Source: an uncultured Chlamydiae bacterium (lineage in GTDB: Bacteria > Chlamydiota > Chlamydiia > Chlamydiales > JAJFMA01). Taken from it: DNA of 64,000 nucleotides. Below the pieces are notes generated by a model, which was given only the letters and a program-made list of their open reading frames with translations, searched no databases and was not told the origin of the DNA. Positions 30,128 to 45,452 of this stretch are shown here, piece by piece. The number at the start of each line of letters is the position of its first letter. The stretch's first letter is position 1. A program made the translations under genes and the position numbers. The stretch lies in NCBI GenBank assembly GCA_963713615.1, contig CAVQMM010000001.1, positions 2,784,001-2,848,000 on the forward strand, written 5' to 3'.

Positions 30128-30753
30128 GTGCGATTATCGTCGCAGGAATTGGCACCGATGTCGGCAAAACGGTGGTCTCGGCAATATTAGTTCAAGCCCT
30201 GGGTTGCGACTACTGGAAGCCTATCCAAACCGGAGGTGCTGATACTGATGTGATTACGAACCTGGTGTCGCGGACCGATCTAACCATTCATCCTGCCTGC
30301 TATACCCTCGAGGCATCTGTCTCACCACACCAAGCGGCTCGCATGGCGGATTGCAAGATAGATGCAACGAAGATTCAACCACCAATAACCAATCGCCCCT
30401 TGCTTATTGAAATGGCTGGGGGAGTCCTCGTCCCCTTTAATGAAGAGAGGCTTCTATTGGACCTGATGACCTCATGGACAGCGCGTTGGATAATCGTCTC
30501 TAAAAACTACCTTGGAAGCATCAACCATACCCTGTTAACAATCGAAGCCCTGCAACGTCGACAGATAGCTCCTTGGGGGATCATCTTCAATGGAGTGGAG
30601 AATCCCGATAGCGAACGCTTTATTCTAAACTATACGGGTCTGCCATGTCTGGGGCGACTCGCTCCTGAGCCAAACATCAACCCTGAAACGATTCGGAGAT
30701 ACGCCACTTTATGGCAGGACAATCTACAGCAACACACCTCCATGACCTCGTAG
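30124..30753 (+). CDS. bioD: Dethiobiotin synthase
   Basis: GIGTDVGKT, WKPIQTG, EMAGG and LGSINHTLL. Confidence 0.96.
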   Translation: MSAIIVAGIGTDVGKTVVSAILVQALGCDYWKPIQTGGADTDVITNLVSRTDLTIHPACYTLEASVSPHQAARMADCKIDATKIQPPITNRPLLIEMAGGVLVPFNEERLLLDLMTSWTARWIIVSKNYLGSINHTLLTIEALQRRQIAPWGIIFNGVENPDSERFILNYTGLPCLGRLAPEPNINPETIRRYATLWQDNLQQHTSMTS

Positions 30754-32021
30754 CCACAGATCTACGGCATATCTGGCACCCGTTTGTTCAAGCGCAGACG
30801 GATGGCAATCCCATCCCTATTGAACGCGGGGAGGGAACGCTTCTTTTCGACATCGAGGGAACGCCTTACATCGATGCGATGAGTTCGTGGTGGGTTAACC
30901 TGCACGGACACGCACATCCTCACATCGCAGGACGCATCGCTGAGCAGGCTCATCGCTTGGAACATGCCCAATTTGCTGATTTGACGCATCAGCCTGCATG
31001 TGAATTAGCTGTAAGACTTTTGAAACACCTCCCTAGCAACCTCACGCGCGTGTTTTATTCCGACAACGGGTCCACGGCCGTCGAAGCCGCTTTGAAGATC
31101 GCCATGCAATATTGGTACAACCTAAACCCTGATAGCCCCCGCACAAAAGTGGTCTCATTTAAGCACGGGTATCATGGCGACACCGTAGGCGCTATGTCCG
31201 TATCCGAGCGAAGCCTCTTTTCCAAGCCTTTTGCACCACTCATGTTCAATACTACCTTTGTCGATCCCCCTGAACCTGGAAACGAACAAACTTCTCTGCT
31301 ACAACTTGCCAAAGCCTTGGAAGCAGATGACGTCGCCTGTTTCATCTATGAGCCTCTGCTGCAAGGCACAGGAGGCTTCCGTAGACACACTGCTGAAGGC
31401 CTTAATGCCCTTCTATCCCTGTGCAAACAAAACAATGTGATCACCATAGCCGATGAGGTTCTCACGGGATTTGGTCGTTTAGGCCCACTCTTTGTAAGTT
31501 CTACGATGGAACAGCAACCAGATATCATTTGCCTTGCCAAGGGAATGGCCGGGGGCTTTCTACCCTTGGCAGCGACGATCTGCAGCGAAAAAATCTATGA
31601 AGCCTTTCTGGCGCCAGAAAGACATAAAGCACTGCTGCATGGGCATACCTACTGCGCCAATCCCTTAGGGTGTGTCGCTGCACTGGCAAGCATGGACCTC
31701 ATCGAAAATCCCCTATGCGAAAAACAACGCGAAGGTATTCATCAGCAACATCTCGCCTTTGTAGAGGTCGCAAAAAACCATCCTAAGCTCCAACGTTGCG
31801 AAGCAATAGGAACCCTGCTTGTGTTGGAATATGCAACAAACGCATCGTATTCTTATTATGGTGAACATCGCAACAAACTAGCGAAATACTTTTTGGATAA
31901 TCGTATTCTTACCAGACCCTTTGGGAATTTGGTCCACATTCTGCCCCCCTACTGCATCACCAAGCAGGAGTTGGCCACAGTTTATGAAGTATTGCTACGC
32001 AGTCTGGAGGAAGTTGTATGA
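30711..32021 (+). CDS. bioA: Adenosylmethionine--8-amino-7-oxononanoate transaminase
   Basis: IWHPF, SSWWVNLHGH, DNGSTAVE, GYHGDT and IADEVLTGFGR. Confidence 0.96.
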   Translation: MAGQSTATHLHDLVATDLRHIWHPFVQAQTDGNPIPIERGEGTLLFDIEGTPYIDAMSSWWVNLHGHAHPHIAGRIAEQAHRLEHAQFADLTHQPACELAVRLLKHLPSNLTRVFYSDNGSTAVEAALKIAMQYWYNLNPDSPRTKVVSFKHGYHGDTVGAMSVSERSLFSKPFAPLMFNTTFVDPPEPGNEQTSLLQLAKALEADDVACFIYEPLLQGTGGFRRHTAEGLNALLSLCKQNNVITIADEVLTGFGRLGPLFVSSTMEQQPDIICLAKGMAGGFLPLAATICSEKIYEAFLAPERHKALLHGHTYCANPLGCVAALASMDLIENPLCEKQREGIHQQHLAFVEVAKNHPKLQRCEAIGTLLVLEYATNASYSYYGEHRNKLAKYFLDNRILTRPFGNLVHILPPYCITKQELATVYEVLLRSLEEVV

Positions 32022-33168: not shown

Positions 33169-33306
33169 AACAAAGGCGGATAAAAGGGGGTCTTGGGAAG
33201 AATTGAATGAAGCGTTGAATCTCTTTAATCCCGCAAGAAATTTATTACAATCCATTATCGTAACCCCAACCGCACCAACCCACTCCAAACCCTAACGAGA
33301 ACATGC

Positions 33307-33693
33307 TTATCCCTCTGACTCCGTAGTTTCATCGGGTTGAGCTTCAAAAGCAAGTACGGTATCATCGTCTTTGTTAAAAACAAACCATTGACACCAATCA
33401 GAGCTGGTAAAGGTCTTCAAAATATAGTGATCACCGATGATCAAACGCATGGTCCGGTTGATATTGCCTTTGTTGTCATAACCATAGGCAACTTGTAGCA
33501 GTCCTTCAGACTGCGAAATCCCTTCCTGGCATATACCATGGCGATGCCATGGCCTGTTGCAATATCGACCCTTCGGGCCTGGGAAGGGAGAAAAGCCTGT
33601 CTTTCTAGACTGGATAGTGCCATACCACTTAAGCTCTCCAGAATCGCCTTCTCACAAAAAAAAAGTGATTTTTTTTCCAAAGAATCGATCCAT
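33307..33693 (-). pseudogene. Possible degraded gene: 129-codon frame with one internal TGA at codon 14
   Basis: MDRFFGKKITFFL*EGDSGELKWYG...ESEG*. The TGA follows a T9 run. No recognisable family. Confidence 0.25.
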
Positions 33694-33834
33694 GAGAGCC
33701 CAAATACTTCTGCAATTACCTCATATGGACAGTCATGGACGATATGGACGAATCCAAAATGAAAAATAAAATACAGATATGGTTCCCCGTGGAGCCTTTT
33801 GGTAACAGCCTAAGGTGAGGGCAAATTTACCGCT

Positions 33835-34101
33835 TTACTCAACAAGAGCGTCTTTGTCGGTGGTGATCTTCCAGGGATAGGTAGTCTTGGCAGCGCGTTG
33901 CAGCTGTGTCCATGCCCCTCGATCGAAGATGCCATCAGCTCCGCCACTACCGTTCCAGAAGAAACACCACATGGCTATTCCAACGAGTGGCACCACAACA
34001 TAGACAGCCATCAACCATCGTGGCACAGGGGTGTCTAGCTGTGCTGGTGCCCCTTCCGAATCAACGAAATCTTCACTTTCTGAAGTCTTGCGAGGTACCA
34101 T
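33835..34101 (-). CDS. cbb3 oxidase CcoP N-terminal-like membrane peptide, no heme motif
   Basis: AAGGAGG SD before MVPRK. LDTPVPRWLMAVYVV resembles the DNPLPRWW helix of CcoP/FixP. No CxxCH. Confidence 0.7.
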   Translation of the reverse strand: MVPRKTSESEDFVDSEGAPAQLDTPVPRWLMAVYVVVPLVGIAMWCFFWNGSGGADGIFDRGAWTQLQRAAKTTYPWKITTDKDALVE

Positions 34102-34297
34102 GGCTACCCTCCTTCTCGGGTTGTTCATCACTCATTTGCATCATGCGCTGTGCGGGTTCATCATCCATATCGAGTCGATCTTTACTCCAGAGATAGAGAA
34201 AGAGCATCAAAGCGCTGCCCACGAAAAAGATAACGATTGCATGATGCATCACGTTGCCATAGATACCTATGGAGTCAAAAATCCGCGCAGCTAACAT
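34073..34297 (-). CDS. Small single-TM cbb3-associated protein (CcoS/CcoQ-like)
   Basis: TM followed by LWSKDRLDMDDEPAQRMM, reminiscent of the CcoS tail; sits between ccoO and the CcoP stub. Confidence 0.55.
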   Translation of the reverse strand: MLAARIFDSIGIYGNVMHHAIVIFFVGSALMLFLYLWSKDRLDMDDEPAQRMMQMSDEQPEKEGSHGTSQDFRK

Positions 34298-34298
34298 T

Positions 34299-35567
34299 TT
34301 ATGGTTCTACCTTTTTTATTCCCTCAATGATCTCAGTAGTATTCAAGGGATCAAGCCCCAACCACCACGCTTGCGTTGGGGGCGTGATACGGGTACCTTT
34401 GGTCATCAAATACTGGAAAACAGCTTCAAAGCGATAGTTTGGTATTCCTACCGAACTCGAGGCCTGCCCTCTTGGATCATCATCAAAGAAATGGCGGAAT
34501 GAGGGCATAATGCTACCGGGACTAGGTGTGCGTGGTTGCCAAAAGTGACCTTTATGCCAATCGCGGCTAGGGCGTTTAACTCCCACTCGCGCTAGGTCAG
34601 GTCCGATGCGCCGCGTTCCAGGAAAGGTAATCTTCTGATAGATGTACTCATTGCCCGATGAGGGTGGCGCTGCAAAGGCTGCACTGCCATTCAACACACT
34701 GTCTTGGATCAGCGTACGACTTTGGTCAGTATGACAGTACCAGCAGCCTTCAATAGCAAAAATATGTTCACCCATAGCGATGAGTTCCTTGCGCGATATG
34801 AAGCCTAGATCTTTGCCCGTGAGCTGCGCTAGGTCCTTGACATATTCGCCATTAGGATCATACCGGTAACCCATGGTATGACCGATGCCAAAGCGCCTGA
34901 AACGATAGGCCTCGGGATTCAGTACATAGGTCACACCGGGGTCCTTATGATAGTCCTGGGTAGGTCCATCGATAATTTTGAAATGTTTATCTACATAGTC
35001 TTCGGTGGTCCCGTCGGTCTGCGAATGCGCAAAGGCTTCCTTCCTTCCCGGATCATATAATTCCATGATCGAGCGATCGACACGCGCCAGACCGCGCTCC
35101 TTCCAGTCAGGATGTTGCTGTTCCCATTCTTTCTGAAGACTGGTGCGCAACTTGTCGGCCTCATCAACAGCATCTCCTATGGGCTTGCGCAGAAGAAGAA
35201 TGTGCGATGTAAGTCTGAGCTCTTTGTCTCCAAAGCGAGTGACAAAGCGTTCAAGGTTTTGTGGTGCCAGAATGCGCATCTGCTCCGTTTCGCGAAAGGC
35301 CATTAGCGTAAAGCCATCCTTCAGATGGTGTACATAGTCTAGACCAGGAGCCCCAGGTACCGCTCTAGCCGCGTAGAAATTGGGGTCGGCGACTTCATAC
35401 ATCTGTACTTGAAAATGGCTGGAAGGCTGTACCCAGCTTGGATCTACCAGGTTAGGGGCTAAAACCGTCGCAAGGATAGAGGTCAGGAACAGCAGAAAGA
35501 TCCCTATGATGGTAAGAACCGCTGACTTCTCAATTCGACTAGTATGGGGCTTGTTTGATTCTGTCAT
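34299..35567 (-). CDS. ccoO: cbb3-type oxidase subunit II, enlarged (422 aa)
   Basis: N-terminal TM, EGCWYCHT, GTRRIGPDL and GSIMP, with a large insertion before the heme domain. Confidence 0.85.
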   Translation of the reverse strand: MTESNKPHTSRIEKSAVLTIIGIFLLFLTSILATVLAPNLVDPSWVQPSSHFQVQMYEVADPNFYAARAVPGAPGLDYVHHLKDGFTLMAFRETEQMRILAPQNLERFVTRFGDKELRLTSHILLLRKPIGDAVDEADKLRTSLQKEWEQQHPDWKERGLARVDRSIMELYDPGRKEAFAHSQTDGTTEDYVDKHFKIIDGPTQDYHKDPGVTYVLNPEAYRFRRFGIGHTMGYRYDPNGEYVKDLAQLTGKDLGFISRKELIAMGEHIFAIEGCWYCHTDQSRTLIQDSVLNGSAAFAAPPSSGNEYIYQKITFPGTRRIGPDLARVGVKRPSRDWHKGHFWQPRTPSPGSIMPSFRHFFDDDPRGQASSSVGIPNYRFEAVFQYLMTKGTRITPPTQAWWLGLDPLNTTEIIEGIKKVEP

Positions 35568-35569
35568 GG

Positions 35570-37039
35570 TTATGCCTGAGCCTCAGCTATAACGCGTTCA
35601 ATTTTTTGAGGTCTCGTTTGTGGCTTCAGCAATATCGTGTTAAAGACATTCACAAGAAAGATGCTATTGGCAGAAAAAATGATAATTCCTGCGATGGTAC
35701 GCGTAAGCCACCAATAGTGCATGCTTGCTATGGTATCTAAAAACTGTAGCTTGCTGAGATTGCTTTGGAAGACGCGATAGCTATCACCATCTGCCCATGT
35801 AGACCACTGAAGCCCCTGCAAGAAACCTCCAACATGCAGCGCAATAAACATGAGAGAGGCTCCCAGCATATTCAGAGTAAAATGCCAATCGGCCATACGC
35901 TTCGAGTAGAGAGGCTTGCCCGTTAGCGCAGGCAAAGCCCCATAGACGCCTGCCATGGCGAAAAATGTAAAGGTTCCATACAGCGACATATGGGCGTGTC
36001 CGATGATCCAATCCGTTTTCGACGTTATTTCATTGACGTTACGTACCGCCATGAAAGAGCCTTGCGTGCTGACCATCAAATAAAACAACACACCCATAAT
36101 AATAAAACGGACGGCGGCAATCTCGTTGTACTTATGCCAACGGCCCTTGAGCGTGTAGAAAAGGTTGTATACTACGGTCCAGACAGGAATGAATAACCAG
36201 ATAGAGAAAATGATGGCGACAGTTTGAATCCATTGAGACATAGGGCCATGGATGATGTGGTGAGAACCCACCCAAGCGTAAACGAAGGCAATGGACCAAA
36301 AGCCCACCATGGAGAGTTTGTGGCTATAGATTGGTGCGTTGGCCATCTTGGGCAGGAAATAATAGGCAATGGCCAGGCCCATCGGTGTAAAGACCAGTCC
36401 TACCAGGTTATGGACGTAGTAAAAGCTCATGTTGACTCTGGAGATTCCCTCAGGAATCCAGTTGATCGCAAAGTTACCCGCGAAATAGGAGATGCCTCCC
36501 CACAACAGTGTGGCCATGATATACCACAGCGACACATACATTTTTTCATATTTGCGATTGGCGATAGTCATGTAGATATTGACCGAGACCAATGTCCAGG
36601 CGACCAAACCAATGAATTTGATCGGCAAATAGGATAACCAGGTGGGAAACTCGGCATACTCCCATCCAAAGTTCGTTCCCCAAGGAAACGAGTAGGTGCC
36701 CGGAACAAAAGCCAGCCAATAGAGGGCTGCAGACCACATACCAAGTTTACGGCTCCAAAGGGGAACACCGCAGAGGCGCTGTGTAATGTAGTAGAGAAGC
36801 CCAAAGTTGGCAGGCAATAGCCAAAGTAACAGGACATGCCCAACATGAACGGGCCGAACTTTTCCGAAGTGAATATACTCACCGGCCCAATAGTCGGGCA
36901 TCACCATTCCATTAAAGGAAATAAACACTCCGAAAAACATCCCAATGACCATAAAAACAATGGCGGGATAGAGGAAGAGTTTTACCGGCAGATCCTCAAA
37001 CTGAGGTTGGGCGGGCTGAGCTTGTGCGACACTTTCCAT
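35570..37039 (-). CDS. ccoN: cbb3-type (C-family) heme-copper oxidase subunit I
   Basis: RPVH, EYAE, YVHNLVG, YAWVGSHH (helix VII Tyr) and WIIGHAH; about 12 TMs. Confidence 0.92.
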   Translation of the reverse strand: MESVAQAQPAQPQFEDLPVKLFLYPAIVFMVIGMFFGVFISFNGMVMPDYWAGEYIHFGKVRPVHVGHVLLLWLLPANFGLLYYITQRLCGVPLWSRKLGMWSAALYWLAFVPGTYSFPWGTNFGWEYAEFPTWLSYLPIKFIGLVAWTLVSVNIYMTIANRKYEKMYVSLWYIMATLLWGGISYFAGNFAINWIPEGISRVNMSFYYVHNLVGLVFTPMGLAIAYYFLPKMANAPIYSHKLSMVGFWSIAFVYAWVGSHHIIHGPMSQWIQTVAIIFSIWLFIPVWTVVYNLFYTLKGRWHKYNEIAAVRFIIMGVLFYLMVSTQGSFMAVRNVNEITSKTDWIIGHAHMSLYGTFTFFAMAGVYGALPALTGKPLYSKRMADWHFTLNMLGASLMFIALHVGGFLQGLQWSTWADGDSYRVFQSNLSKLQFLDTIASMHYWWLTRTIAGIIIFSANSIFLVNVFNTILLKPQTRPQKIERVIAEAQA

Positions 37040-37062: not shown

Positions 37063-40000
37063 CTATGTGTGGGACTTTAACGGTTTAGCAGCCTCTATGA
37101 ATTCATTGACCTGCTCAACAAGCTTCGTCTGGTTCTGACGAGACCGAGCGGCATCCTCAAGCGTTGTCATGAGCAATATTTCTAGTTGCTGAAAACTCTT
37201 TAGCCGCTGCTCTAGCTCGGTAAGATGCTCTCGACCTGCGGCAGAGGGAATTTGCCCTTCGAGCAGCTTCTTTTCTTTCTGAATAGCCGCTATTTGCTGA
37301 TTAATGAGAACGATGACATTTTTGCCACCAGCTACAATCTTTTGAGCATCGGGAGAGTAAGGATCCAAACTCAACTTACCATCGTTGTAGTCATAGTGAG
37401 TGGCGTTGAGTCCGACTAAATCAACGATTTGATCGGAAATATCACCCTGTCCAGCATTCGTCAATGCTGAGGTACCGAGGATATTGTAGATATCCTTAGA
37501 CTGTTTAATTTCCTCGATCAGCTTCTGGAAGACATCATCAATGGCTTGTTGCTTCTTAACTTGCTCAGCAAGCGAGAGCTCATTTTGGTAGGCTTTGACA
37601 AGTGCCGGCACAGCTGTCTGATCTAATGCCAGCTTAGCTTCCTGATCTTCTTTGAAGCTATGTGCCGCTTGATAGGCGTCTTGCAGTTTTTGTAATATTC
37701 CATATTGAACAATCTGTTGCTGCCTGACAGTATCAACGGCTCTATCGAACGAATGATATAAGACCTCAGCTAAGTGCTCTCTCAGGGCATGCTCCTCACT
37801 TAGACTGCGGATGTACATGACCAGCTGCAAACGCTGTAGGGAGTTAGTAAAGTCTCCCCAAGGAATCATGGCTGTGCCAGGCACGCCATATTTGATCGAC
37901 TGGATCAGCCGTAAATCATCGCGCGTGTTAATCCAATCGAGGTTTGTTAGCATACGTGGTTTGGATTCAGTCATCGTACCGGCGCGAAGACCATTACCAG
38001 CGCCCTCTTTACCGTGGCAGATGGCACAGTTTTCAATAAATGACTTCTCTCCTGCCGCCAGATTTTCTGGTGTATAGTACTTTTGCTTGATGTAGTACGC
38101 CTTACGATCCACGCCAGATACGGGATAGGGTTTGATGTCAAACACATCCGATACATGTTGGGCATTGGGATCAGGCGTCGTCATTGGCTTGAGAGCTGCT
38201 AAAAACTTAGCAGCGCCTTCGGCATCATAAAGCGCGGAACCTCTCAGAACATCGCCCTCTTGATGTAATTCACGTAGCACATCTTCAGGTTGATAATGCC
38301 ACTTGAGAGGCTGTGTTTGACTGTTATCTTCTTCTGGGATGCCTATGAATAACCAGTCAGCTAGACGTTTAATCTCCTGAGACGTAAAAACCGGCGTTGT
38401 GTTCCCATGGATTTTGTCTTTGGCCAGCTCGCCCCAAGGAGGCATGGGTGTCCCCTTCACTCCATGTGTGATGGACTCTATGACGCGTTCTTTTGTAAGG
38501 TTTTGCAAAAAGTTGGCGTTGCGTAGATTTTTTGGAATGGGATAGAGCCACTGCGCTACAGGTCCATCACCCTGACGGTAGTCGCCGTGACATTGTGCAC
38601 AATTAATATGGTAGGCCACTTCGGGGTTGAAGCCGCGATTGTCCCACAACTCTCGTTCCACCGCCGCATTGCGAGGTGCTAGAGTATCTAACATGTAGGT
38701 CAAGGTATAGAATTTCGTCTCATCAAACGGAAAGACGGGCATGATGGAACGAGCGACATGTGTCACAGGGTTATAGAAGTGTTCCATAAGCCACTCGTCG
38801 GAACGATAAATGCCCGACCAATTGGGTCTAGGGCCTACAAGGCGTCCCAGACCATACTCTTGAATATACATCTTCAATACGCGTTCTACACGCTCTTTCC
38901 ACTGATTCAGCTGTGCCAGGGCTGCCGCTTTTTCTTGGGCAGAAGCCGCCTTAGCAGCTGCTTGCTGATAGTATGCATTTTTGGCGCGTGAGGCAAACTT
39001 GAAATCGGAATACAGGGCCTCGATAATACCCGGATGCTTTTCCTCAATTTCCTCAATAATCGATCCCTGACGCACACCATCGGCGATTCTATGATCGATC
39101 TCGTCAGCATGATCGTCTATAGCCTGAACGATTTGTGATCCAAGAGCTTCTTCTGGAAAAAGACCGCTAAACCATTCATGTTGCTTATACATCTCGGCAA
39201 AAGTCGGTTCATGGCCTTTTTCGATGGCAAAGCCCACATTGGATTCGAATCCCTTAAGACGATGGCATGCGGAACACCCCTGAGTGGCGAATATCGTCAT
39301 CCCAAAGCGCAAATCGTGAATTTTTGCCGCAGGAACGGGCAATTCAAAAGACTGCTTCTTCTTGCCCTCTTCCCATTGTTTTACAATGACATCGTAGTCA
39401 ACCTGCGAGATAGCATGCGGCCGCCCTCTCTGTCCTAGTAGAAAGCAGGTAATAGCTTCGAGCTCTTCGTGATCAAGTTTATAGTTTGGCATGGTAGAAG
39501 TTGGTAGATCGGCCTGAGGCCATACGACGGACTCCTTGACAAACCAAGGATATTTGAAGCCTTCAGCGGTTAGTTCAGGGCCCACTCCCCCTCTCGCCAG
39601 GCCAGCAATGCGGTGGCAGGCATAGCATGCCTGAGAAATGTAAAGCTGCTCGCCACGTTCATAGCATTGGATCATGCGATCAACATCGCCAGTGACAGCT
39701 TGCTTGACCTGATCCTGCGCAAGAGAGATCGAAAGACCACTTTCGGCCTTTCCAATATGATGTAAGAAAATTTGTTGTCTTTCTGCCGCCGCGGCCTTAG
39801 CAAATAGGTGGCCTTGTGTGTCCTTGTGTGCCTCTACAAATTTGTCAATGGTCGCATCAGCTGCCGTGGGTTGTGCCCAAACACTCTTATCCAGTTCGTC
39901 GGCAATTTTTTGCGTACCCAGCGATGCCAATATCTGTCCCTCGATGTACTTTAGGGCAGCTGTCTGGCGGGCTAAGTTATCCACTGCGGGAATATTCCCC

Positions 40001-41115
40001 ACGGCGACACGCAAAAATGCTGCCTGTGCTGCAGCCTCTCCACGCTCTGTTTGTGGCAAGCTATATTCCGTTTCTCGTGCTGTAACAGCCTTCAACGTGG
40101 CGTCATAACCCTGGGAATTAATAGCTTTGCGAAGGGTCAACAAGGTGATCAGAGCTTTCTTTTCAGTGTTGTAAGCCTTCTGAACGTCCTGCGCCTGCTG
40201 GGCAGTCTGGTTCTTTAGGTTAGTGACAGTGCTGATGGCCCCTTGGAGCTGCGACGATGACGACAGGTGACACTGCACGCAATTGGCTTGAATTAGTTCT
40301 CCAGGAAATATCGGAGTTGTCTGAAAAAGCAGTTTATGCCCCGGTTTATGGTTAAATATTTTTGAGAAGATAGGATCATTGTCAGGATCAACTTCAAGAA
40401 ACTGCGGTTCAGGCCCTTCAAATGACTCTGGGTATTGCCCATCAAACACGGGTCCATGAGCCTTTTCAATGGTTAAGGCGCGACCATTTCCGCTGTGGCA
40501 TACAGTACAGCCATATTCTTCCACGGGGTGAAACTCGAAGGGACGTGATTCCTTTCCGATCAAAGGATGCATCGCTATGGCTTTGGTCATATCGACTTGG
40601 CGGTCTCCCACCCAAGCCGATTTTAAAGCCTTCAGCTTGTCAGCTTCGGCTATTCGCTCTTTAACCTGGGCCTCATCGCTATGCTCTTTTAAAGCCTCCA
40701 GAGCTTTCTCGTCGGATAGGGCAGCAACCCTGTCATCAAGCAGCTGCCAGACATAATTTTCGTTGGCCACCTTAACGGGGTAGCCTTCTTTGTCCAGAAC
40801 GACTTGTCCATTGACATCCGTGGCGATTTTTGTGGGCGAAAAATGCGCTAGCTGGAGTGCAACATGACAGCTTGTGCAGCGGTCTACGATCTCAGGACCA
40901 TTGTGCTCCTGAGGTAAGACTATCTGCCTGATACCTATATCAAACGGTGCCGGATTTTCATGGGTTATCGTGGATCGAAATTCCTCTAAGGCGATATATG
41001 TCTGCTGAAATTGCTTGTATTGGGGATAAACTTCGCGCGACAAGAAGATGCCAAAGAGGATCGTGGTGACCACGAGTAAGAAGATCAGGCTCAGTTGATA
41101 GAGTTCAGATCGCAC
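37063..41115 (-). CDS. Membrane-anchored heptaheme c-type cytochrome (1350 aa)
   Basis: N-terminal TM; CTSCH, CTVCH, CVQCH, CYACH, CSACH, CAQCH and CAICH; long helical inserts. Confidence 0.9.
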   Translation of the reverse strand: MRSELYQLSLIFLLVVTTILFGIFLSREVYPQYKQFQQTYIALEEFRSTITHENPAPFDIGIRQIVLPQEHNGPEIVDRCTSCHVALQLAHFSPTKIATDVNGQVVLDKEGYPVKVANENYVWQLLDDRVAALSDEKALEALKEHSDEAQVKERIAEADKLKALKSAWVGDRQVDMTKAIAMHPLIGKESRPFEFHPVEEYGCTVCHSGNGRALTIEKAHGPVFDGQYPESFEGPEPQFLEVDPDNDPIFSKIFNHKPGHKLLFQTTPIFPGELIQANCVQCHLSSSSQLQGAISTVTNLKNQTAQQAQDVQKAYNTEKKALITLLTLRKAINSQGYDATLKAVTARETEYSLPQTERGEAAAQAAFLRVAVGNIPAVDNLARQTAALKYIEGQILASLGTQKIADELDKSVWAQPTAADATIDKFVEAHKDTQGHLFAKAAAAERQQIFLHHIGKAESGLSISLAQDQVKQAVTGDVDRMIQCYERGEQLYISQACYACHRIAGLARGGVGPELTAEGFKYPWFVKESVVWPQADLPTSTMPNYKLDHEELEAITCFLLGQRGRPHAISQVDYDVIVKQWEEGKKKQSFELPVPAAKIHDLRFGMTIFATQGCSACHRLKGFESNVGFAIEKGHEPTFAEMYKQHEWFSGLFPEEALGSQIVQAIDDHADEIDHRIADGVRQGSIIEEIEEKHPGIIEALYSDFKFASRAKNAYYQQAAAKAASAQEKAAALAQLNQWKERVERVLKMYIQEYGLGRLVGPRPNWSGIYRSDEWLMEHFYNPVTHVARSIMPVFPFDETKFYTLTYMLDTLAPRNAAVERELWDNRGFNPEVAYHINCAQCHGDYRQGDGPVAQWLYPIPKNLRNANFLQNLTKERVIESITHGVKGTPMPPWGELAKDKIHGNTTPVFTSQEIKRLADWLFIGIPEEDNSQTQPLKWHYQPEDVLRELHQEGDVLRGSALYDAEGAAKFLAALKPMTTPDPNAQHVSDVFDIKPYPVSGVDRKAYYIKQKYYTPENLAAGEKSFIENCAICHGKEGAGNGLRAGTMTESKPRMLTNLDWINTRDDLRLIQSIKYGVPGTAMIPWGDFTNSLQRLQLVMYIRSLSEEHALREHLAEVLYHSFDRAVDTVRQQQIVQYGILQKLQDAYQAAHSFKEDQEAKLALDQTAVPALVKAYQNELSLAEQVKKQQAIDDVFQKLIEEIKQSKDIYNILGTSALTNAGQGDISDQIVDLVGLNATHYDYNDGKLSLDPYSPDAQKIVAGGKNVIVLINQQIAAIQKEKKLLEGQIPSAAGREHLTELEQRLKSFQQLEILLMTTLEDAARSRQNQTKLVEQVNEFIEAAKPLKSHT

Positions 41116-41132: not shown

Positions 41133-42458
41133 TCAATGTCGGGAAAAGGTTTCGGTCCATGGCCAGATCCAGCCCCAATTAGCCCCTCGAAAAAATGTTC
41201 CTATCACAATCAGAATTGCCTGGCTCGTCATGAACAATGTCCACAGAAAAATCGCCAAATAACGGCTGCGATGGAACCAGTATCCGGTACCATAAGGATT
41301 ACGATCGAGGTATGGCACAGCCATCAAGCCCACGACGATCAGACCTGGAATACCTACTCCTCCCCAGAAAGCGCTGTAGGAAACCATTTCCTGCAAACCC
41401 AAAAAGTACCAAGGAGCCTTGGAGGGATTCGGTGGTGCTGTAGCGTTCGCTGGTTCCTCTAACGGAGCATCGATAAATGAAAGTCCCAGAGTCAACACCA
41501 ATGTAAAGAGAAAGGCAACTGTCTCAGCTCGCAAAAGATTCGGCCAGGTAAAGATGAAGTTATAGGGCCCCTTGTCAACGGTTGGACACGTCCCACGCAC
41601 TAGCTCCATCAGTCCATAGGTGCGCTTGACCCCTGGAGCGAATGTCTCCTTGGTGTCGGATCGTTGCACCACACGAAGAGGGTCTGGTCGAATCTTATCG
41701 GGTGGACGCGATAGTCCCCCATCCTTGCGGATGCGCCAAAAATGCACGCCAATGAGAGTACCGGCGATCAGGGGCAACACGACGACGTGAAGAACATAAA
41801 AGCGGATCAAAGCGTCTTGTCCTACGCTTGTAGAAGCCAGCAGCATGACGCGGTTAACGTTGTACTGAAAACCAGGCAGATTAGGGGCATAGCCAGCAAT
41901 CTCCGTTCCTACGGTAATAGCCCAGAAGGCCAGTTGGTCCCACGGTAAAAGGTAACCTGTAAAAGACAATACCAAGGTGAGCACGAGCAACGTGACGCCG
42001 ATGACCCAATTGAACCGTCGTTCTCCTTTATAGGAGCCCGTATAAAAGACCCGGGACATGTGAAGCATGACGAACATCACCATCAGGTGAGCGCTCCAAC
42101 GATGCATGTTGCGGTACATCTGTGCAAAAGGGGTGGTGTCCTGCCAATCCTTCATGATGTCGTAGGCACGGTCAACCGTAGGGATGTAGAAAAACATCAA
42201 GACGACACCCGTCCAGGTCAGAATTAAGAACAAACTCGTAGAGATAGCACCCAGCCCTAACGTATAGAAGGGGTCGACACTGTTCTTATGGCACTTCACA
42301 GGGTGAAAGTGCAGGAAAAAATTCTTAAAGACGATTTCGGACCGATCGACATCATTGTTGGGATAGTTATGCCGAAAAATTGAACGCAAAAAGGTTCTAG
42401 GAAGATTGGCTAAGTATTCAGCCCAGGATTCACGTGGTGTGCCCTTAAAGACAGCCAT
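41133..42458 (-). CDS. petB: Cytochrome b of a Rieske/cytb complex (b6-like plus subunit IV-like in one chain)
   Basis: RNMHRWSAH..LHMSRVF, FTGYLLPWDQ, RFYVLH-x14-H and the Qo motif variant KAPWYF. Confidence 0.92.
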   Translation of the reverse strand: MAVFKGTPRESWAEYLANLPRTFLRSIFRHNYPNNDVDRSEIVFKNFFLHFHPVKCHKNSVDPFYTLGLGAISTSLFLILTWTGVVLMFFYIPTVDRAYDIMKDWQDTTPFAQMYRNMHRWSAHLMVMFVMLHMSRVFYTGSYKGERRFNWVIGVTLLVLTLVLSFTGYLLPWDQLAFWAITVGTEIAGYAPNLPGFQYNVNRVMLLASTSVGQDALIRFYVLHVVVLPLIAGTLIGVHFWRIRKDGGLSRPPDKIRPDPLRVVQRSDTKETFAPGVKRTYGLMELVRGTCPTVDKGPYNFIFTWPNLLRAETVAFLFTLVLTLGLSFIDAPLEEPANATAPPNPSKAPWYFLGLQEMVSYSAFWGGVGIPGLIVVGLMAVPYLDRNPYGTGYWFHRSRYLAIFLWTLFMTSQAILIVIGTFFRGANWGWIWPWTETFSRH

Positions 42459-42488: not shown

Positions 42489-42998
42489 TTAGACCATCGG
42501 CGCAAACCACGCTTCGATGTCATTTAATGTTGTTTGTGACTTATCACACATAATTTCGCCCGAAGCTCCCAGAAAGCACTTAAAGTAAACTAAAGGGCGC
42601 GGAGCCGGGCCTCCAGTGTTATGCCCTAATAGGTCATAGGTAGAACCGTGGCAGGGACATTGATAGCCTGTCTCTACCATATGTACCGTGCATCCTAAAT
42701 GTGTACATACCGCCGTTTGAACACGCACTTTGCCATTTTCCGAATCTACAAAGACCTTCTGCTTGGGCACAAAAACTTTTCCTTGGTGAGCGAGAACTTC
42801 ATCTGGCCGTCCCAAAGAAAAAATGCTCGGAGGAATCTTCATCGCATTAGGCCAGAGAAAACCCAGCATTGAGGCACCCATCAGATTCAGGGCTCCGAAG
42901 CCTACCCCAACGCCTAATAGAGCTAAAAAAGAGCGCCGAGAAATGCGAGGATCCCTGTCATCTGCATCAACATTTAAAGAGTTCCGTAGCTTAGGCAT
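42489..42998 (-). CDS. petC: Rieske [2Fe-2S] subunit
   Basis: SRRSFL twin-arginine anchor; CTHLGC and CPCHGSTY; GPAPRPL. Confidence 0.93.
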   Translation of the reverse strand: MPKLRNSLNVDADDRDPRISRRSFLALLGVGVGFGALNLMGASMLGFLWPNAMKIPPSIFSLGRPDEVLAHQGKVFVPKQKVFVDSENGKVRVQTAVCTHLGCTVHMVETGYQCPCHGSTYDLLGHNTGGPAPRPLVYFKCFLGASGEIMCDKSQTTLNDIEAWFAPMV

Positions 42999-43066: not shown

Positions 43067-43476
43067 AGGATTCGGATTAACACGGATTTAGGATGGGATT
43101 AGGAGTAACACGGATGCACACGGATCTAGGAGGATTTAGGATGGGATTAGGAGTAACACGGATGCACACGGATCTAGGAGGATTTAGGAGGATAGGATTA
43201 GGATTTAGGATAGGACTAATGGTGGATTTTAAAGAAGTAAAAATGGGGTCTAGGAAAACTCCTAAACAATTTTTTACTCTTAATTCTATCCTCCTAAATC
43301 CTCCTAGATCCGTGTGCATCCGTGTTACTCCTAATCCTATCCTCCTAGATCCGTGTGCATCCGTGTTACTCCTAATCCTATCCTCCTAGATCCGTGTGCA
43401 TCCGTGTTACTCCTAATCCCATCCTAAATCCTCCTAGATCCGTGTGCATCCGTGTTACTCCTAGTCCCATCCTAAT
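43067..43476. repeat. Repeat family B expanded inverted cluster (2+ forward, 4 reverse units)
   Basis: GGAGTAACACGGATGCACACGGATCTAGGAGGAT units at 43067-43212, inverted at 43286-43476. Confidence 0.9.
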
Positions 43477-43618
43477 CGTCCTTATCCTCGCTCTCATCGC
43501 GGAACATCTGGTATTTGACATCTTCCACATCATCAAACTGCCCTTTGTACCAATAGTAGAGGAAGATCAGGAGGGCCGATAGACCTGCAGCTAAACTCAG
43601 CACCAGGTCTACAAACAT
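43472..43618 (-). CDS. ccoS: cbb3-type oxidase assembly protein CcoS (48 aa, absent from ORF track)
   Basis: MFVDLVLSLAAGLSALLIFLYYWYKGQFDDVEDVKYQMFRDESEDKDD*: TM plus GQFDD motif. ATG lies 1 nt after the oxidoreductase stop. Confidence 0.85.
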   Translation of the reverse strand: MFVDLVLSLAAGLSALLIFLYYWYKGQFDDVEDVKYQMFRDESEDKDD

Positions 43619-43619
43619 C

Positions 43620-45452
43620 TCAACCTATCCACCTAAAGCTATAGTTCATCGCATCCATCGTTACTGCTTGGGTTGGGCACTTTTCAGCACACAATCCACA
43701 GCGAATGCACAAGTCCTCATCTTTCATCATGATGGTACCCATGAGGGCTAGGTCATGCTCCGACATTTCCACTGAATCCACTCCGTAGAAGTTATCCACA
43801 GCACGGCGCACATTGCCCTCTCCAGCATCCAAGTTTACTTTGCTGACAGGCACCTGCATTAAGCAATTGGTAGGGCATACATCAACACATCCATTACATT
43901 TGATGCAGAGCGTCCCATCGAAAACCGGAGAGACATGACACTGCAAACAGCGGTTGGCCTGCTGATGCACAGCTTCGTCGGTATAGTTGTTCTCAACATA
44001 CTCCAGGTTCTTAACACGACTGTGCGCCGGCTGCGAGGTAGGCAATGCCCACTTGGTCCTCAGATATCCCTTGTCACGCATAGGAATAATTTCTGTAAAT
44101 TCAGCCACGAACTCACGATAGGGTTTTGTGCCACGTAGATCGCTGTCTATCGTCCTGGCAGTTTCTTGACCATGCCTGATAGCCGTGATAAACAACGCCG
44201 GACCGAATCCCACATCGCCGCCCGAATAGACTCTTGGAACACTCGTACGCCCAGTGCCTCTCTCTGTTTTGATGAGACCTCGGTCAATCACTAGCTGGTC
44301 ACGCTTATCCCAGCCGTCGAGGAAGGCGGTATCCATTGCCTGACCAATGGCCAGCGCTACCGTGTCACAAGGAATCACATACTGGCTGTCTGGAACATAC
44401 TTAGGGGCAAAACGTCCCTGAGAATCAAACAGGCTGTAGATAGGCTGTACCTTAAGCCCAATCACTCTGCCCTGTTCATCGCGCTCAACAGAAATTGGCC
44501 CGACACGGTTGATCAGCTCCACACCTTCTTCATGCCCATCTTCGATTTCGAATTCATCAGCTGTTTGTTCATCGCGGGATTCCAAGCAGACCATGGTGAT
44601 CTTTTCCGCACCATTTCGTACTGAGGAGCGCGCCACATCAAAAGCCACGTTGCCCCCACCAACAACGACGATGCGCTTACCAATAGCCCAGCGCTCATCA
44701 GCGCATAACACTCGCAAATACTCAACACCACGAATAATATCGGGACCATCAGCTCCCGGGATGGGCAGCTCGCGAGATTTCCATAGGCCAATGCCTATGA
44801 AAATGGCATCATATTTTTCCTGAAGCTGGTTCATTGTGATGTCGCGACCAATCTTAGTATTGTAGTACACCTGAGCACCCAGATGTTCGATCGCACGACA
44901 TTCAGTAATGGCTAATTTATTCTTTAGACGATAGGTGGGCACGCCATGGGTCAACATACCGCCAGGCATAGACATCATCTCAAAGACATCCACAGCATAG
45001 CCCAAGCGTAGCAAGTCGTGAGCTGTTGTCAGTGAGGCTACTCCAGCACCAATACAAGCAACTTTCAGTCCATTTGGTGTAGGCTTGGTAGAACCGCGGG
45101 CAAAGCTAAACTCCAAGGATCGATTGAGGGCCGCCTGATCTTCTCCAAACCATTCATCAAGATAACGCTTTTGAGCACGAATGGTGAGCGTCTTATCCAC
45201 ACGATCACGACGACAGGCTATTTCGCAGGGAGCTCCACAGATCATGCCACAGATCGATGCAAAAGGATTCGGACCACGGGCTATTTTGTAGCCTTCTAGA
45301 AGATTGCCCGCATGAATCGCCAGCATATAGCCACGTCCATCCGTATTCACTGGACAACCATCACGGCAGTCAATCTGACGCAAGTAGTAATCGACATCTG
45401 GAATGGTAACGTCGTACAGTTGGCGGTAGGCGTCGTCAAGCTCTTCGGTCAC
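43620..45452 (-). CDS. FAD/NAD(P)H-dependent Fe-S oxidoreductase (GltD/NfnB/DsrL-like) with C-terminal 2x[4Fe-4S] ferredoxin
   Basis: CRDGCP, CGMICGAPCEIAC, IGAGVAS, GGGNVAFDVAR, RCLQC, CIKCNGCVDVCP and CIRCGLCAEKCP; AAGGAG SD before the GTG start. Confidence 0.88.
   Translation of the reverse strand: MTEELDDAYRQLYDVTIPDVDYYLRQIDCRDGCPVNTDGRGYMLAIHAGNLLEGYKIARGPNPFASICGMICGAPCEIACRRDRVDKTLTIRAQKRYLDEWFGEDQAALNRSLEFSFARGSTKPTPNGLKVACIGAGVASLTTAHDLLRLGYAVDVFEMMSMPGGMLTHGVPTYRLKNKLAITECRAIEHLGAQVYYNTKIGRDITMNQLQEKYDAIFIGIGLWKSRELPIPGADGPDIIRGVEYLRVLCADERWAIGKRIVVVGGGNVAFDVARSSVRNGAEKITMVCLESRDEQTADEFEIEDGHEEGVELINRVGPISVERDEQGRVIGLKVQPIYSLFDSQGRFAPKYVPDSQYVIPCDTVALAIGQAMDTAFLDGWDKRDQLVIDRGLIKTERGTGRTSVPRVYSGGDVGFGPALFITAIRHGQETARTIDSDLRGTKPYREFVAEFTEIIPMRDKGYLRTKWALPTSQPAHSRVKNLEYVENNYTDEAVHQQANRCLQCHVSPVFDGTLCIKCNGCVDVCPTNCLMQVPVSKVNLDAGEGNVRRAVDNFYGVDSVEMSEHDLALMGTIMMKDEDLCIRCGLCAEKCPTQAVTMDAMNYSFRWIG

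What the first reader, a model, noticed from the sequence alone, without database searches (positions are those of the whole stretch)
37063..41115. 1350-aa heptaheme cytochrome as a possible fixed wire from complex III to the oxidase
Seen: three N-terminal CxxCH motifs, then four class I-like domains each followed by a Met-Pro-type ligand motif (TMP, IMP, PMPPW, AMIPW). Long Ala/Gln/Lys-rich helical segments separate them and a coiled-coil-like tail follows. The gene sits between cytb and ccoN. Inference: it combines the roles of cytochrome c1, soluble cytochrome c and CcoP.
Basis: partly seen in the sequence, partly recalled or inferred. Interest (0 to 1): 0.7.

Follow-up and report, generated by a model that had tools for sequence, protein, structure and literature searches.

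The report
Seven-haem bridge from bc to cbb3
An environmental chlamydia encodes a membrane-anchored protein with seven haem-binding sites between the genes of its quinol-oxidising complex III and its high-affinity oxygen reductase; it is an enlarged form of a ~600-residue protein in the same operon of acidobacteria and likely carries electrons from one complex to the other without a soluble cytochrome.

Summary
Observation confirmed: 41115-37063 (minus strand) encodes 1350 aa with seven CxxCH motifs, one N-terminal transmembrane helix, three invariant extra His (likely bis-His trihaem) and four invariant Met. It was found in 44 of 200 Chlamydiota genomes; 42 of these 44 have the cytochrome b and all 44 have CcoN. 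The operon is flavoprotein-fixS-Rieske-cytb-heptahaem-ccoN-ccoO-ccoQ-like-haem-less CcoP stub. The genome search found no small cytochrome c and no cupredoxin. A CcoO-only search found the same operon in acidobacteria, with a ~600-aa seven-haem homologue. The helical segments are therefore chlamydial inserts, not spacers. A predicted complex with CcoO gave only weak support, and haem distances could not be measured. The protein is neither cytochrome c1 nor CcoP by family tests; it likely does their jobs. The scan reported this family before in six other genomes. The bc and cbb3 genes are published for Chlamydiae; I found no paper on this subunit. Verdict: new variant of a known kind, interest 0.5.

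The parts
37063..41115 (-). Heptahaem cytochrome c, 1350 aa (the finding)
41038..41094 (-). Single N-terminal hydrophobic helix, residues 8-26; likely a membrane anchor
   Evidence: Kyte-Doolittle 2.6, the only segment above 1.4; helix 2-28 in the model; also present in compact homologues
40246..40935 (-). Trihaem domain: CxxCH 80, 203, 279 plus invariant His183, His196, His220 (inferred bis-His haems)
   Evidence: His kept in 188 of 188 chlamydial and 33 of 33 compact homologues; low model confidence here
39691..40266 (-). Ala/Gln/Lys-rich helical hairpin insert, about 284-475; dispensable
   Evidence: model segment aligns with generic antiparallel coiled coils, Z about 8; haem 3-4 spacing is 62 or less in 14 of 186 homologues and 27 in 33 of 33 compact homologues
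39421..39675 (-). Class I haem 4 (C497, Met542), SoxX/CcoO-like
38671..39327 (-). Class I haem 5 (C614, Met792), FixO/CcoO-like, carrying a ~130-aa internal helical insert
   Evidence: PF02433 at 760-802; insert absent from compact homologues
37786..38634 (-). Dihaem module, haems 6 and 7 (C839/Met891, C1030/Met1083); Kustc0457-like, weaker CcoP-like; likely exit end
   Evidence: VIA Z 15.1, rmsd 3.8 A, 198 residues to 6h5l_B; Met1048 is Ile in 33 of 33 compact homologues, so Met1083 is the likely ligand
37066..37785 (-). 240-aa haem-free C-terminal tail; absent from the compact homologues
   Evidence: no convincing Pfam hit; compact homologues end 77-122 aa after the last motif; not folded alone
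43620..45452 (-). GltD-like FAD/NAD(P)/[4Fe-4S] oxidoreductase, 610 aa
   Evidence: Fer4_20, Pyr_redox_2, Fer4; upstream of Rieske in most chlamydial loci, downstream of ccoO in compact loci
43472..43618 (-). FixS/CcoS, 48 aa
   Evidence: PF03597 27 bits, above cut-off
42489..42998 (-). Rieske protein with Tat-like signal and Ser/Tyr (high-potential type) motif
   Evidence: S-x-Y in 89 of 89 chlamydial copies
41133..42458 (-). Cytochrome b (b6-like plus subunit IV-like in one chain), Qo motif APWY
   Evidence: APWY in 92 of 93 chlamydial and 30 of 30 compact copies
35570..37039 (-). CcoN, cbb3 catalytic subunit; metal-ligand His positions aligned and kept
   Evidence: E 2e-55 to 3mk7_A with alignment; which His bind which metal is recalled
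34299..35567 (-). CcoO, 422 aa, monohaem, with a ~215-aa insert of no known family
34073..34297 (-). 74-aa CcoQ-like small membrane protein (label inferred from position and size)
   Evidence: conserved by BLAST in related loci; no Pfam hit
33835..34131 (-). 98-aa haem-less CcoP N-terminal stub (FixP_N-like)
   Evidence: PF14715 E 0.015, below cut-off; conserved; 0 of 90 copies carry CxxCH

Best explanation
The protein is the seven-haem, membrane-anchored cytochrome c encoded in a conserved Rieske/cytochrome b-cbb3 operon, and it likely relays electrons from the Rieske centre to CcoO, doing the jobs that cytochrome c1, a soluble carrier and CcoP's haem domains do elsewhere. Shown: motifs, ligand conservation, linkage, the haem-less CcoP stub, and no small cytochrome c or cupredoxin found in this genome. 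Inferred: the N-terminal helix packs on cytochrome b; menaquinol is oxidised at the APWY site; the high-potential electron passes Rieske -> trihaem/haem 4 -> haem 5 -> haems 6-7 -> CcoO -> CcoN -> O2. The Ala/Gln/Lys helices and the tail are chlamydial add-ons, probably structural struts or oligomer contacts, and are not part of the electron path.
For: Linkage in Chlamydiota: 42 of 44 heptahaem genomes have the cytb orthologue and 44 of 44 have CcoN. In 40 loci, cytb is adjacent in 37 of 39 testable and ccoN in 37 of 39. Independent linkage: a search with CcoO alone gave 80 metagenome loci; 40 of 40 with at least 1800 nt upstream carry ccoN and a heptahaem piece, and 33 carry a complete 7-motif gene after cytb. 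Named members of those protein clusters are acidobacterial. Homology to the chlamydial profile: probability 100, E 2e-82, 583 columns, with the three His and four Met kept in 33 of 33. No substitute carrier: PF00034 and PF13442 hit only this protein and a TsdA-like dihaem above cut-off, and PF00127 hits nothing, in a 99% complete genome. Cytochrome c maturation genes and futalosine menaquinone genes are present. Haems 6-7 are modelled as a packed dihaem like Kustc0457 in two models (Z 15.1 and 15.6). G156 keeps heptahaem plus ccoNO without Rieske/cytb at the locus. Predicted complex of residues 816-1350 with CcoO 38-422: weak support, score 0.57 against best control 0.00, contacts agree 89% or more, partner pLDDT 78 or more. 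That mark was reached by 116 of 157 solved and 2 of 215 mismatched pairs, but at 0.60 or under by only 18 of the 157 and by both mismatches. It may reflect likeness to solved CcoP-CcoO.
Against: The trihaem region has pLDDT in the 40s-60s in both models. G055 and G095 keep fixS-ccoNOQ-stub with no heptahaem or cytb match, so the oxidase genes can persist without it. In four loci of the second set ccoN was found elsewhere in the genome, not behind the heptahaem gene (L119, L123, L149, L159). In L103's genome it was not found. Related octahaem proteins follow Rieske/cytb with no ccoN beside them (L144). Bis-His haems are usually low-potential (established knowledge), which fits poorly downstream of a Ser/Tyr Rieske, so the entry haem is uncertain. 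Kao and Hunte 2014 (PMC4122944, section 13 and passages) suggest APWY complexes may run in reverse and say none had been characterised. Kin are not independent, and the two chlamydial locus sets overlap.
Confidence: 0.65

Rival explanations
1. It is only the cytochrome c subunit of complex III. It meets CcoO transiently or through the membrane-anchored TsdA-like dihaem, so there is no stable III-IV supercomplex and no fixed wire.
For: Oxidase genes survive without it in G055 and G095. The operon breaks at the heptahaem/ccoN junction in several genomes. Homologous octahaems occur with Rieske/cytb and no adjacent oxidase. TsdA-sized cytochrome frames occur in many relatives. The complex score is weak.
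Against: G156 keeps it with ccoNO without Rieske/cytb at the locus. Several small genomes show PF00034 matches only inside this protein among the listed rows (24 matches unlisted). The CcoP stub has no haem domains.
Confidence: 0.2
2. The complex is an anammox-type NAD(P)H-producing bifurcating enzyme. The heptahaem drains the high-potential electron to O2 at cbb3, and the low-potential electron goes to the co-encoded flavoprotein. This is compatible with the bridge role but changes the purpose of the machine.
For: The flavoprotein gene stays in the operon in both phyla although its position moves. The Rieske is of the Ser/Tyr type in a genome with menaquinone genes. The same combination is proposed to make NAD(P)H in Kuenenia (Hauser 2025, PMC12954380, abstract and passages). 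A conserved His pair lies near the cytb N-terminus.
Against: The mechanism is unproven even in Kuenenia. No test of flavoprotein-cytb contact was made here. L102 and L046 show cytb-heptahaem-ccoNO with no flavoprotein or Rieske match in the locus. The flavoprotein could instead feed NAD(P)H electrons in.
Confidence: 0.2
3. The complex runs in reverse or as a branch point. Electrons from a periplasmic donor (for example thiosulfate via the TsdA-like protein) enter the heptahaem and are split between cbb3 and uphill quinone reduction.
For: APWY motif and the reverse-flow proposal (PMC4122944). TsdA-like dihaem in this genome, E 4e-38. G156 keeps heptahaem plus oxidase without complex III.
Against: The TsdA-like gene is unlinked (C1:84887-85771) and was not seen among the listed matches of several operon-bearing genomes. 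The reverse proposal rests on gene context in Geobacter, not on measurement.
Confidence: 0.1
4. One N-terminal haem is a catalytic or sensing site, for example for NO or peroxide, and not only a relay.
For: The fold of the trihaem domain was not identified, and its haems are likely low-potential.
Against: There are exactly seven candidate sixth ligands (three His, four Met) for seven haems, all conserved in both phyla. That leaves no obvious five-coordinate site.
Confidence: 0.05

Closest known systems
Compact ~590-640-aa heptahaem cytochromes of the acidobacterial fixS-Rieske-cytb-heptahaem-ccoNO operon (cluster members annotated only 'c-type cytochrome', e.g. Mesoterricola silvestris WP_316414145.1, Geothrix sp., Bryobacteraceae)
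   Same: Seven CxxCH motifs, same three His and four Met, N-terminal helix, same gene order, haem-less CcoP stub, flavoprotein nearby.
   Different: The chlamydial form is 2.2-fold longer. Motif spacings are 123/76/218/117/225/191 plus a 320-aa end, against 48/54/27/~114/82/112 plus ~90. Its CcoO is 422 aa against 189. Not functionally characterised in any paper I found.
Kuenenia stuttgartiensis Rieske/cytb complexes Kustd1480-1485 and Kuste4569-4574 (Hauser 2025, PMC12954380; Baymann 2012, PMC3509893, places Parachlamydia and Waddlia cytb in group A2 with them)
   Same: Membrane-anchored multihaem cytochrome c in place of c1/f, NAD(P) oxidoreductase gene in the cluster, Ser-containing high-potential Rieske. 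Kustd1485 is described as large with long helices.
   Different: There cytb is split into b6 plus subunit IV and has haem cN; the haem count is six or eight; no cbb3 oxidase is in the cluster. Direct sequence comparison with Kustd1485/Kuste4573 was not made.
Kustc0457 dihaem (PDB 6h5l_B) and Kustd1711 dihaem (7zs0)
   Same: Best sequence and fold match for haems 6-7 (Z 15.1-15.6; E 5e-13 and 3e-19). Kustd1711 is the best sequence match for compact haems 4-5 (E 5e-9).
   Different: These are stand-alone anammox proteins with other partners; the Kustd1711 two-domain arrangement does not superpose (rmsd 13 A).
CcoP of cbb3 oxidases, and the Pseudomonas bc1-c4-c5-cbb3 supercomplex (PMC10556555, abstract and outline)
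   Same: A class I haem chain from complex III to CcoO; haems 6-7 resemble CcoP weakly (E 2e-8 with the compact profile).
   Different: There c1, c4, c5 and CcoP are separate proteins. Here one chain would cover the path, and CcoP is cut down to a haem-less stub.
Actinobacterial bcc-aa3 obligate supercomplex (QcrC dihaem; recalled, with weak fold matches)
   Same: Menaquinol-to-O2 chain without a soluble cytochrome c.
   Different: Two haems, an A-family oxidase and a different cytb clade.

Membership tests
Cytochrome c1 (bc1) | One class I haem with a C-terminal membrane anchor (recalled) | tested here: not met
   Seven motifs; the only hydrophobic segment is N-terminal
Cytochrome c1 (bc1) | Match to the cytochrome c1 family model | tested here: not met
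   No such family among the Pfam or NCBIfam hits at E up to 0.1
CcoP | TIGR00782 score above cut-off | tested here: not met
   41.3 bits against 179.95
CcoP | FixP_N membrane segment joined to two class I haem domains | tested here: not met
   The FixP_N-like segment is a separate 98-aa ORF; 0 of 90 copies have CxxCH
CcoP | Dihaem class I module that contacts CcoO | tested here: inconclusive
   Module present; complex score 0.57 against control 0.00, weak
Compact acidobacterial heptahaem family | Colinear homology over all seven haem domains | tested here: met
   hhalign probability 100, E 2.4e-82, 583 columns
Compact acidobacterial heptahaem family | Same axial-ligand candidates (three His, four Met) | tested here: met
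   33 of 33
Compact acidobacterial heptahaem family | Encoded between cytb and ccoN | tested here: met
Anammox-type (group A2/APWY) Rieske/cytb complex | Multihaem membrane-anchored cytochrome c and NAD(P) oxidoreductase genes in the cluster | tested here: met
Anammox-type (group A2/APWY) Rieske/cytb complex | APWY Qo motif with a Ser-containing Rieske | tested here: met
   92 of 93 and 89 of 89
Anammox-type (group A2/APWY) Rieske/cytb complex | Split cytochrome b6 plus subunit IV | tested here: not met
   One 441-aa chain matches both ExtP-like and ExtQ-like models
Anammox-type (group A2/APWY) Rieske/cytb complex | Cys for haem cN | tested here: inconclusive
   The position I take from the recalled b6 motif is Thr; not aligned to a b6 structure
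Anammox-type (group A2/APWY) Rieske/cytb complex | Sequence homology to Kustd1485 or Kuste4573 | not tested
Obligate III-IV supercomplex | No soluble cytochrome c or cupredoxin encoded | tested here: met
   Own genome, 99.1% complete; HiPIP not searched
Obligate III-IV supercomplex | Stable physical association of III and IV | not testable with these tools
   Only one two-chain prediction, weak
Obligate III-IV supercomplex | Continuous haem chain within tunnelling distance | not testable with these tools
   Models are haem-free and their coordinates are not exposed

The most novel reading that the evidence does not exclude
Chlamydiae and acidobacteria share an undescribed, self-contained respiratory supercomplex. 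One heptahaem chain hard-wires an APWY-type Rieske/cytb complex to a CcoP-less cbb3 oxidase, and the pull of O2 drives the bifurcated low-potential electron through the co-encoded Fe-S flavoprotein to make NAD(P)H. This would be an aerobic, culturable counterpart of the mechanism proposed for anammox bacteria.
Probability: 0.2. Interest if true: 0.8.

Novelty: new variant of a known kind. Interest (0 to 1): 0.5.

Why it matters
It fills the gap in the published chlamydial respiratory chain: PetBD and CcoN/O are reconstructed (PMC9816063, passages), but I saw no c-type link named there. It points to a III-IV architecture in which one polypeptide replaces c1, the shuttle and CcoP's haems. APWY-type complexes were described as uncharacterised in 2014 (PMC4122944). 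The NAD(P)H-forming proposal for anammox complexes is hard to test in slow-growing anammox cells (my own knowledge). The compact homologue occurs in named acidobacterial species such as Mesoterricola silvestris, which makes both questions testable.

Tried and rejected
Plus-strand translation gave only stops, so the gene is on the minus strand. The idea that long helices act as spacers or as the wire was rejected: they are absent from compact homologues and partly from 14 of 186 chlamydial ones. A frameshift or assembly fusion artefact was rejected: the best 120 of 591 homologues listed are 1181-1426 aa and all have seven motifs. Plasmid searches found no match for the heptahaem and three partial cytb matches. 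No fold match was found for the trihaem domain in either model; that region is low-confidence and was not folded alone, so this shows nothing about novelty. The tail gave no useful Pfam hit and was not folded alone. The promoter scan gave 15 sites against 18.3 expected, so nothing was concluded. Sequencing runs held only small shares of the operon (best 0.21). One peat RNA run had a few exact 151-245-nt pieces in ccoN, the heptahaem gene, cytb and the flavoprotein gene at depth 2-4; DNA carry-over is not excluded, so this is not used as evidence of expression. Tail length correlates with CcoO length (rho 0.45, 66 loci), but kin are not independent and it was not used. A quick CcoO tree placed the chlamydial rows on a very long branch and did not resolve a donor. 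The search of the 50%-identity protein representatives never ran, and Dibrova 2013 (PMC3839093) was not held and was not read; it may describe this operon. Literature searches with no paper on this protein among the listed results: (the term 'heptaheme' occurred in none of the 15 listed). Supplements were not read, and most subscription journals are not covered.


Full report
OBSERVATION. The ORF is real: 41115->37063, minus strand, 1350 aa. It has seven CxxCH motifs at 80, 203, 279, 497, 614, 839 and 1030; none of 20,000 shuffles had more than two. It has one hydrophobic helix, residues 8-26. Pfam sees four class I stretches, with FixO-like and CcoP-like matches; NCBIfam gives only below-cut-off hits. 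The best 120 of 591 database homologues were listed; all have seven motifs, and the named ones are Chlamydiales, Parachlamydia and Protochlamydia. I pooled these with locus ORFs of over 900 aa and at least six motifs, which leaves truncated forms out. Of the 188 distinct proteins, 186 have seven motifs. His183, His196, His220, Met542, Met792 and Met891 are kept in 188 of 188 and Met1083 in 186 of 188. That is seven candidate sixth ligands for seven haems: three bis-His and four His/Met (inference).

CONTEXT. The minus-strand operon reads: Fe-S flavoprotein (610 aa), fixS, Rieske, cytochrome b, heptahaem, ccoN, ccoO, a 74-aa ccoQ-like ORF and a 98-aa FixP_N-like ORF. Gaps from Rieske to the ccoQ-like ORF are 1-30 nt. 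CcoN aligns to the solved cbb3 subunit at E 2e-55 with its His positions kept. The CcoP remnant has no haem motif in any of 90 copies among 118 loci. In the 99.1% complete genome, class I cytochrome models hit only this protein and an unlinked TsdA-like dihaem above cut-off. No cupredoxin was found. A six-frame CxxCH scan showed no convincing small cytochrome. A CcsA-type maturation gene with a ResB-like neighbour (label for the neighbour inferred), futalosine menaquinone genes and a second, 667-codon haem-copper oxidase frame are present.

DISTRIBUTION. The protein was found in 44 of 200 scored Chlamydiota genomes, this one included. The cytb orthologue is in 42 of those 44 and, at full length, in no other genome of the sample. 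CcoN is in all 44 plus G055 and G095. In 40 loci fetched from that sample, cytb is adjacent in 37 of 39 testable and ccoN in 37 of 39. In 78 further loci, found with cytb and overlapping the first set, the figures are 70 of 74 and 58 of 66. Some misses are inserted genes, a split gene or start-site artefacts. For five loci lacking a following ccoN, ccoN was found elsewhere in four genomes. Natural deletions cut both ways. G156 keeps fixS-heptahaem-ccoNOQ-stub without flavoprotein, Rieske or cytb at the locus. G055 and G095 keep fixS-ccoNOQ-stub without heptahaem or cytb. G109 holds a lone three-haem remnant.

A COMPACT VERSION. Earlier scan notes claimed a ~585-aa homologue in other phyla, and I tested this without using the heptahaem as bait. 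Short CcoO relatives were aligned and used on metagenome contigs; the best 80 of 570 confirmed candidates were kept. All 40 loci with at least 1800 nt upstream of ccoO carry ccoN and a heptahaem piece. Thirty-three carry a complete seven-motif gene of 587-715 aa after cytb. The order is fixS-Rieske-cytb-heptahaem-ccoN-ccoO, then two small haem-less ORFs (read in 9 loci), then the flavoprotein. The two profiles align colinearly (probability 100, E 2e-82), and the same His and Met residues are kept in 33 of 33. For 10 of the 33 proteins looked up, the taxon-bearing cluster members were all acidobacterial: Terriglobia, Bryobacteraceae, Holophagae. An Atlas cluster of 589 aa, commonest in Acidobacteriota, agrees as a lead. 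The chlamydial protein is therefore an enlarged form, with inserts after haems 1, 3, within 5 and after 6, plus a 240-aa tail. The insert after haem 3 is nearly absent in 14 of 186 chlamydial homologues. More distant octahaem relatives follow Rieske/cytb in a Bacteroidota-labelled locus (no ccoN beside it) and in a second, short-contig locus of G199.

STRUCTURE. AlphaFold2 of residues 1-1110 gave pLDDT 79 and pTM 0.70; the compact homologue gave 77 and 0.63. In both models, haems 6-7 superpose as a unit on the anammox dihaem Kustc0457 (Z 15.1, rmsd 3.8 A, 198 residues; Z 15.6, rmsd 3.3 A, 193 residues). Haem 7 alone also matches ActE of alternative complex III (Z 12.4-12.7) and CcoP (Z 9.7-11.3). 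Residues 284-475 align with generic antiparallel coiled coils at Z about 8, which suggests a hairpin whose ends lie together (inference). The trihaem domain is low-confidence and unmatched. Haem distances could not be obtained. A predicted complex of residues 816-1350 with CcoO 38-422 gave weak support: 0.57 against a best control of 0.00, contacts agreeing 89% or more, partner pLDDT 78 or more. The mark was reached by 116 of 157 solved and 2 of 215 mismatched pairs, but at 0.60 or under by only 18 of the 157 and by both mismatches. Likeness to solved CcoP-CcoO may explain it.

MECHANISM. Most likely (0.65) the protein is the cytochrome c subunit of this Rieske/cytb complex and also the direct donor to CcoO, replacing c1, a shuttle and CcoP's haem domains. 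Linkage, ligands and the missing alternatives are shown; direction, entry haem, stable association and distances are inferred. Rivals are a complex-III-only subunit with transient contact (0.2), reverse or branched flow (0.1) and a catalytic haem (0.05). A further reading overlaps with the main one: the whole complex makes NAD(P)H by bifurcation (0.2). The cytb has APWY in 92 of 93 copies and the Rieske has Ser/Tyr in 89 of 89.

WHAT IS KNOWN. Baymann 2012 (PMC3509893, passages) lists Parachlamydia and Waddlia cytb in group A2 with Kuenenia. Dharamshi 2023 (PMC9816063, passages) reconstructs PetBD and CcoO/N in Chlamydiae; I saw no c-subunit named in those passages. Kao and Hunte 2014 (PMC4122944, passages and section 13) define the APWY clade as uncharacterised and possibly reverse-running. 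Hauser 2025 (PMC12954380, abstract and passages) describes the Kuenenia multihaem subunits, Rieske potentials above +300 mV and the NAD(P)H proposal. Trojan 2021 (PMC8407424, passages) notes acidobacterial III-IV superoperons with aa3-type oxidases and a minimal CcoNO core. Hausmann 2018 (PMC6018796, passages) and the Caldithrix paper (PMC5317091, passages) added nothing specific. Di Trani 2023 (PMC10556555, abstract and outline) shows a multi-protein bc1-cbb3 supercomplex. Nine searches listed no paper on this protein. Dibrova 2013 could not be read and supplements were not opened, so prior description is not excluded.

VERDICT. A real, conserved and under-described variant of a known kind: the multihaem c subunit of an APWY Rieske/cytb complex, operon-linked to a CcoP-less cbb3 oxidase. 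It fails membership tests for c1 and CcoP but likely works like both. The scan has reported the family before in six other genomes. Interest 0.5.

Noticed in passing
window 43073-43473: A ~48-nt element in tandem and inverted copies fills the gap between fixS and the Rieske gene. It gives 172 short-BLAST hits in 68 clusters across the genome, so it is a dispersed REP-like repeat and not operon-specific.
   Followed up: partly
G000:C1:84887-85771 (L245): TsdA-like dihaem cytochrome (E 4e-38 to thiosulfate dehydrogenase) with a hydrophobic N-terminus; 260-317-codon cytochrome frames occur in many relatives. It is a possible second electron source for the oxidase.
   Followed up: partly
window 34806-35450: Chlamydial CcoO carries a ~215-aa insert with no Pfam match; acidobacterial CcoO is 189 aa.
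   Followed up: partly
window 43620-45452: The GltD-like Fe-S flavoprotein is 69-86% identical across chlamydial loci and stays in the operon in acidobacteria at a different position.
   Followed up: partly
L075 (G055), L076 (G095), L051 (G156), L067 (G109): Natural partial deletions of the operon: oxidase without heptahaem, heptahaem plus oxidase without complex III, and a lone three-haem remnant.
   Followed up: yes
L072 (G199:C155) and protein P0122: A second flavoprotein-Rieske-cytb-multihaem cluster on a 4.5-kb contig of a chlamydial MAG; contamination or separate acquisition not resolved.
   Followed up: partly
L246 237-1304 (G089): 355-aa dihaem protein that looks like a cytochrome c peroxidase/MauG-type protein (label recalled, not scanned); similar-length frames occur in several relatives.
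   Followed up: no
window 27995-32021: Biotin synthesis cluster with an apparent 710-aa BioB-BioF fusion followed by bioD- and bioA-like genes (labels from recalled motifs).
   Followed up: no
window 33300-33750: The stretch downstream of the operon drew multi-copy, partly matching contigs in four runs and may be another repeat or a mobile-element remnant.
   Followed up: no
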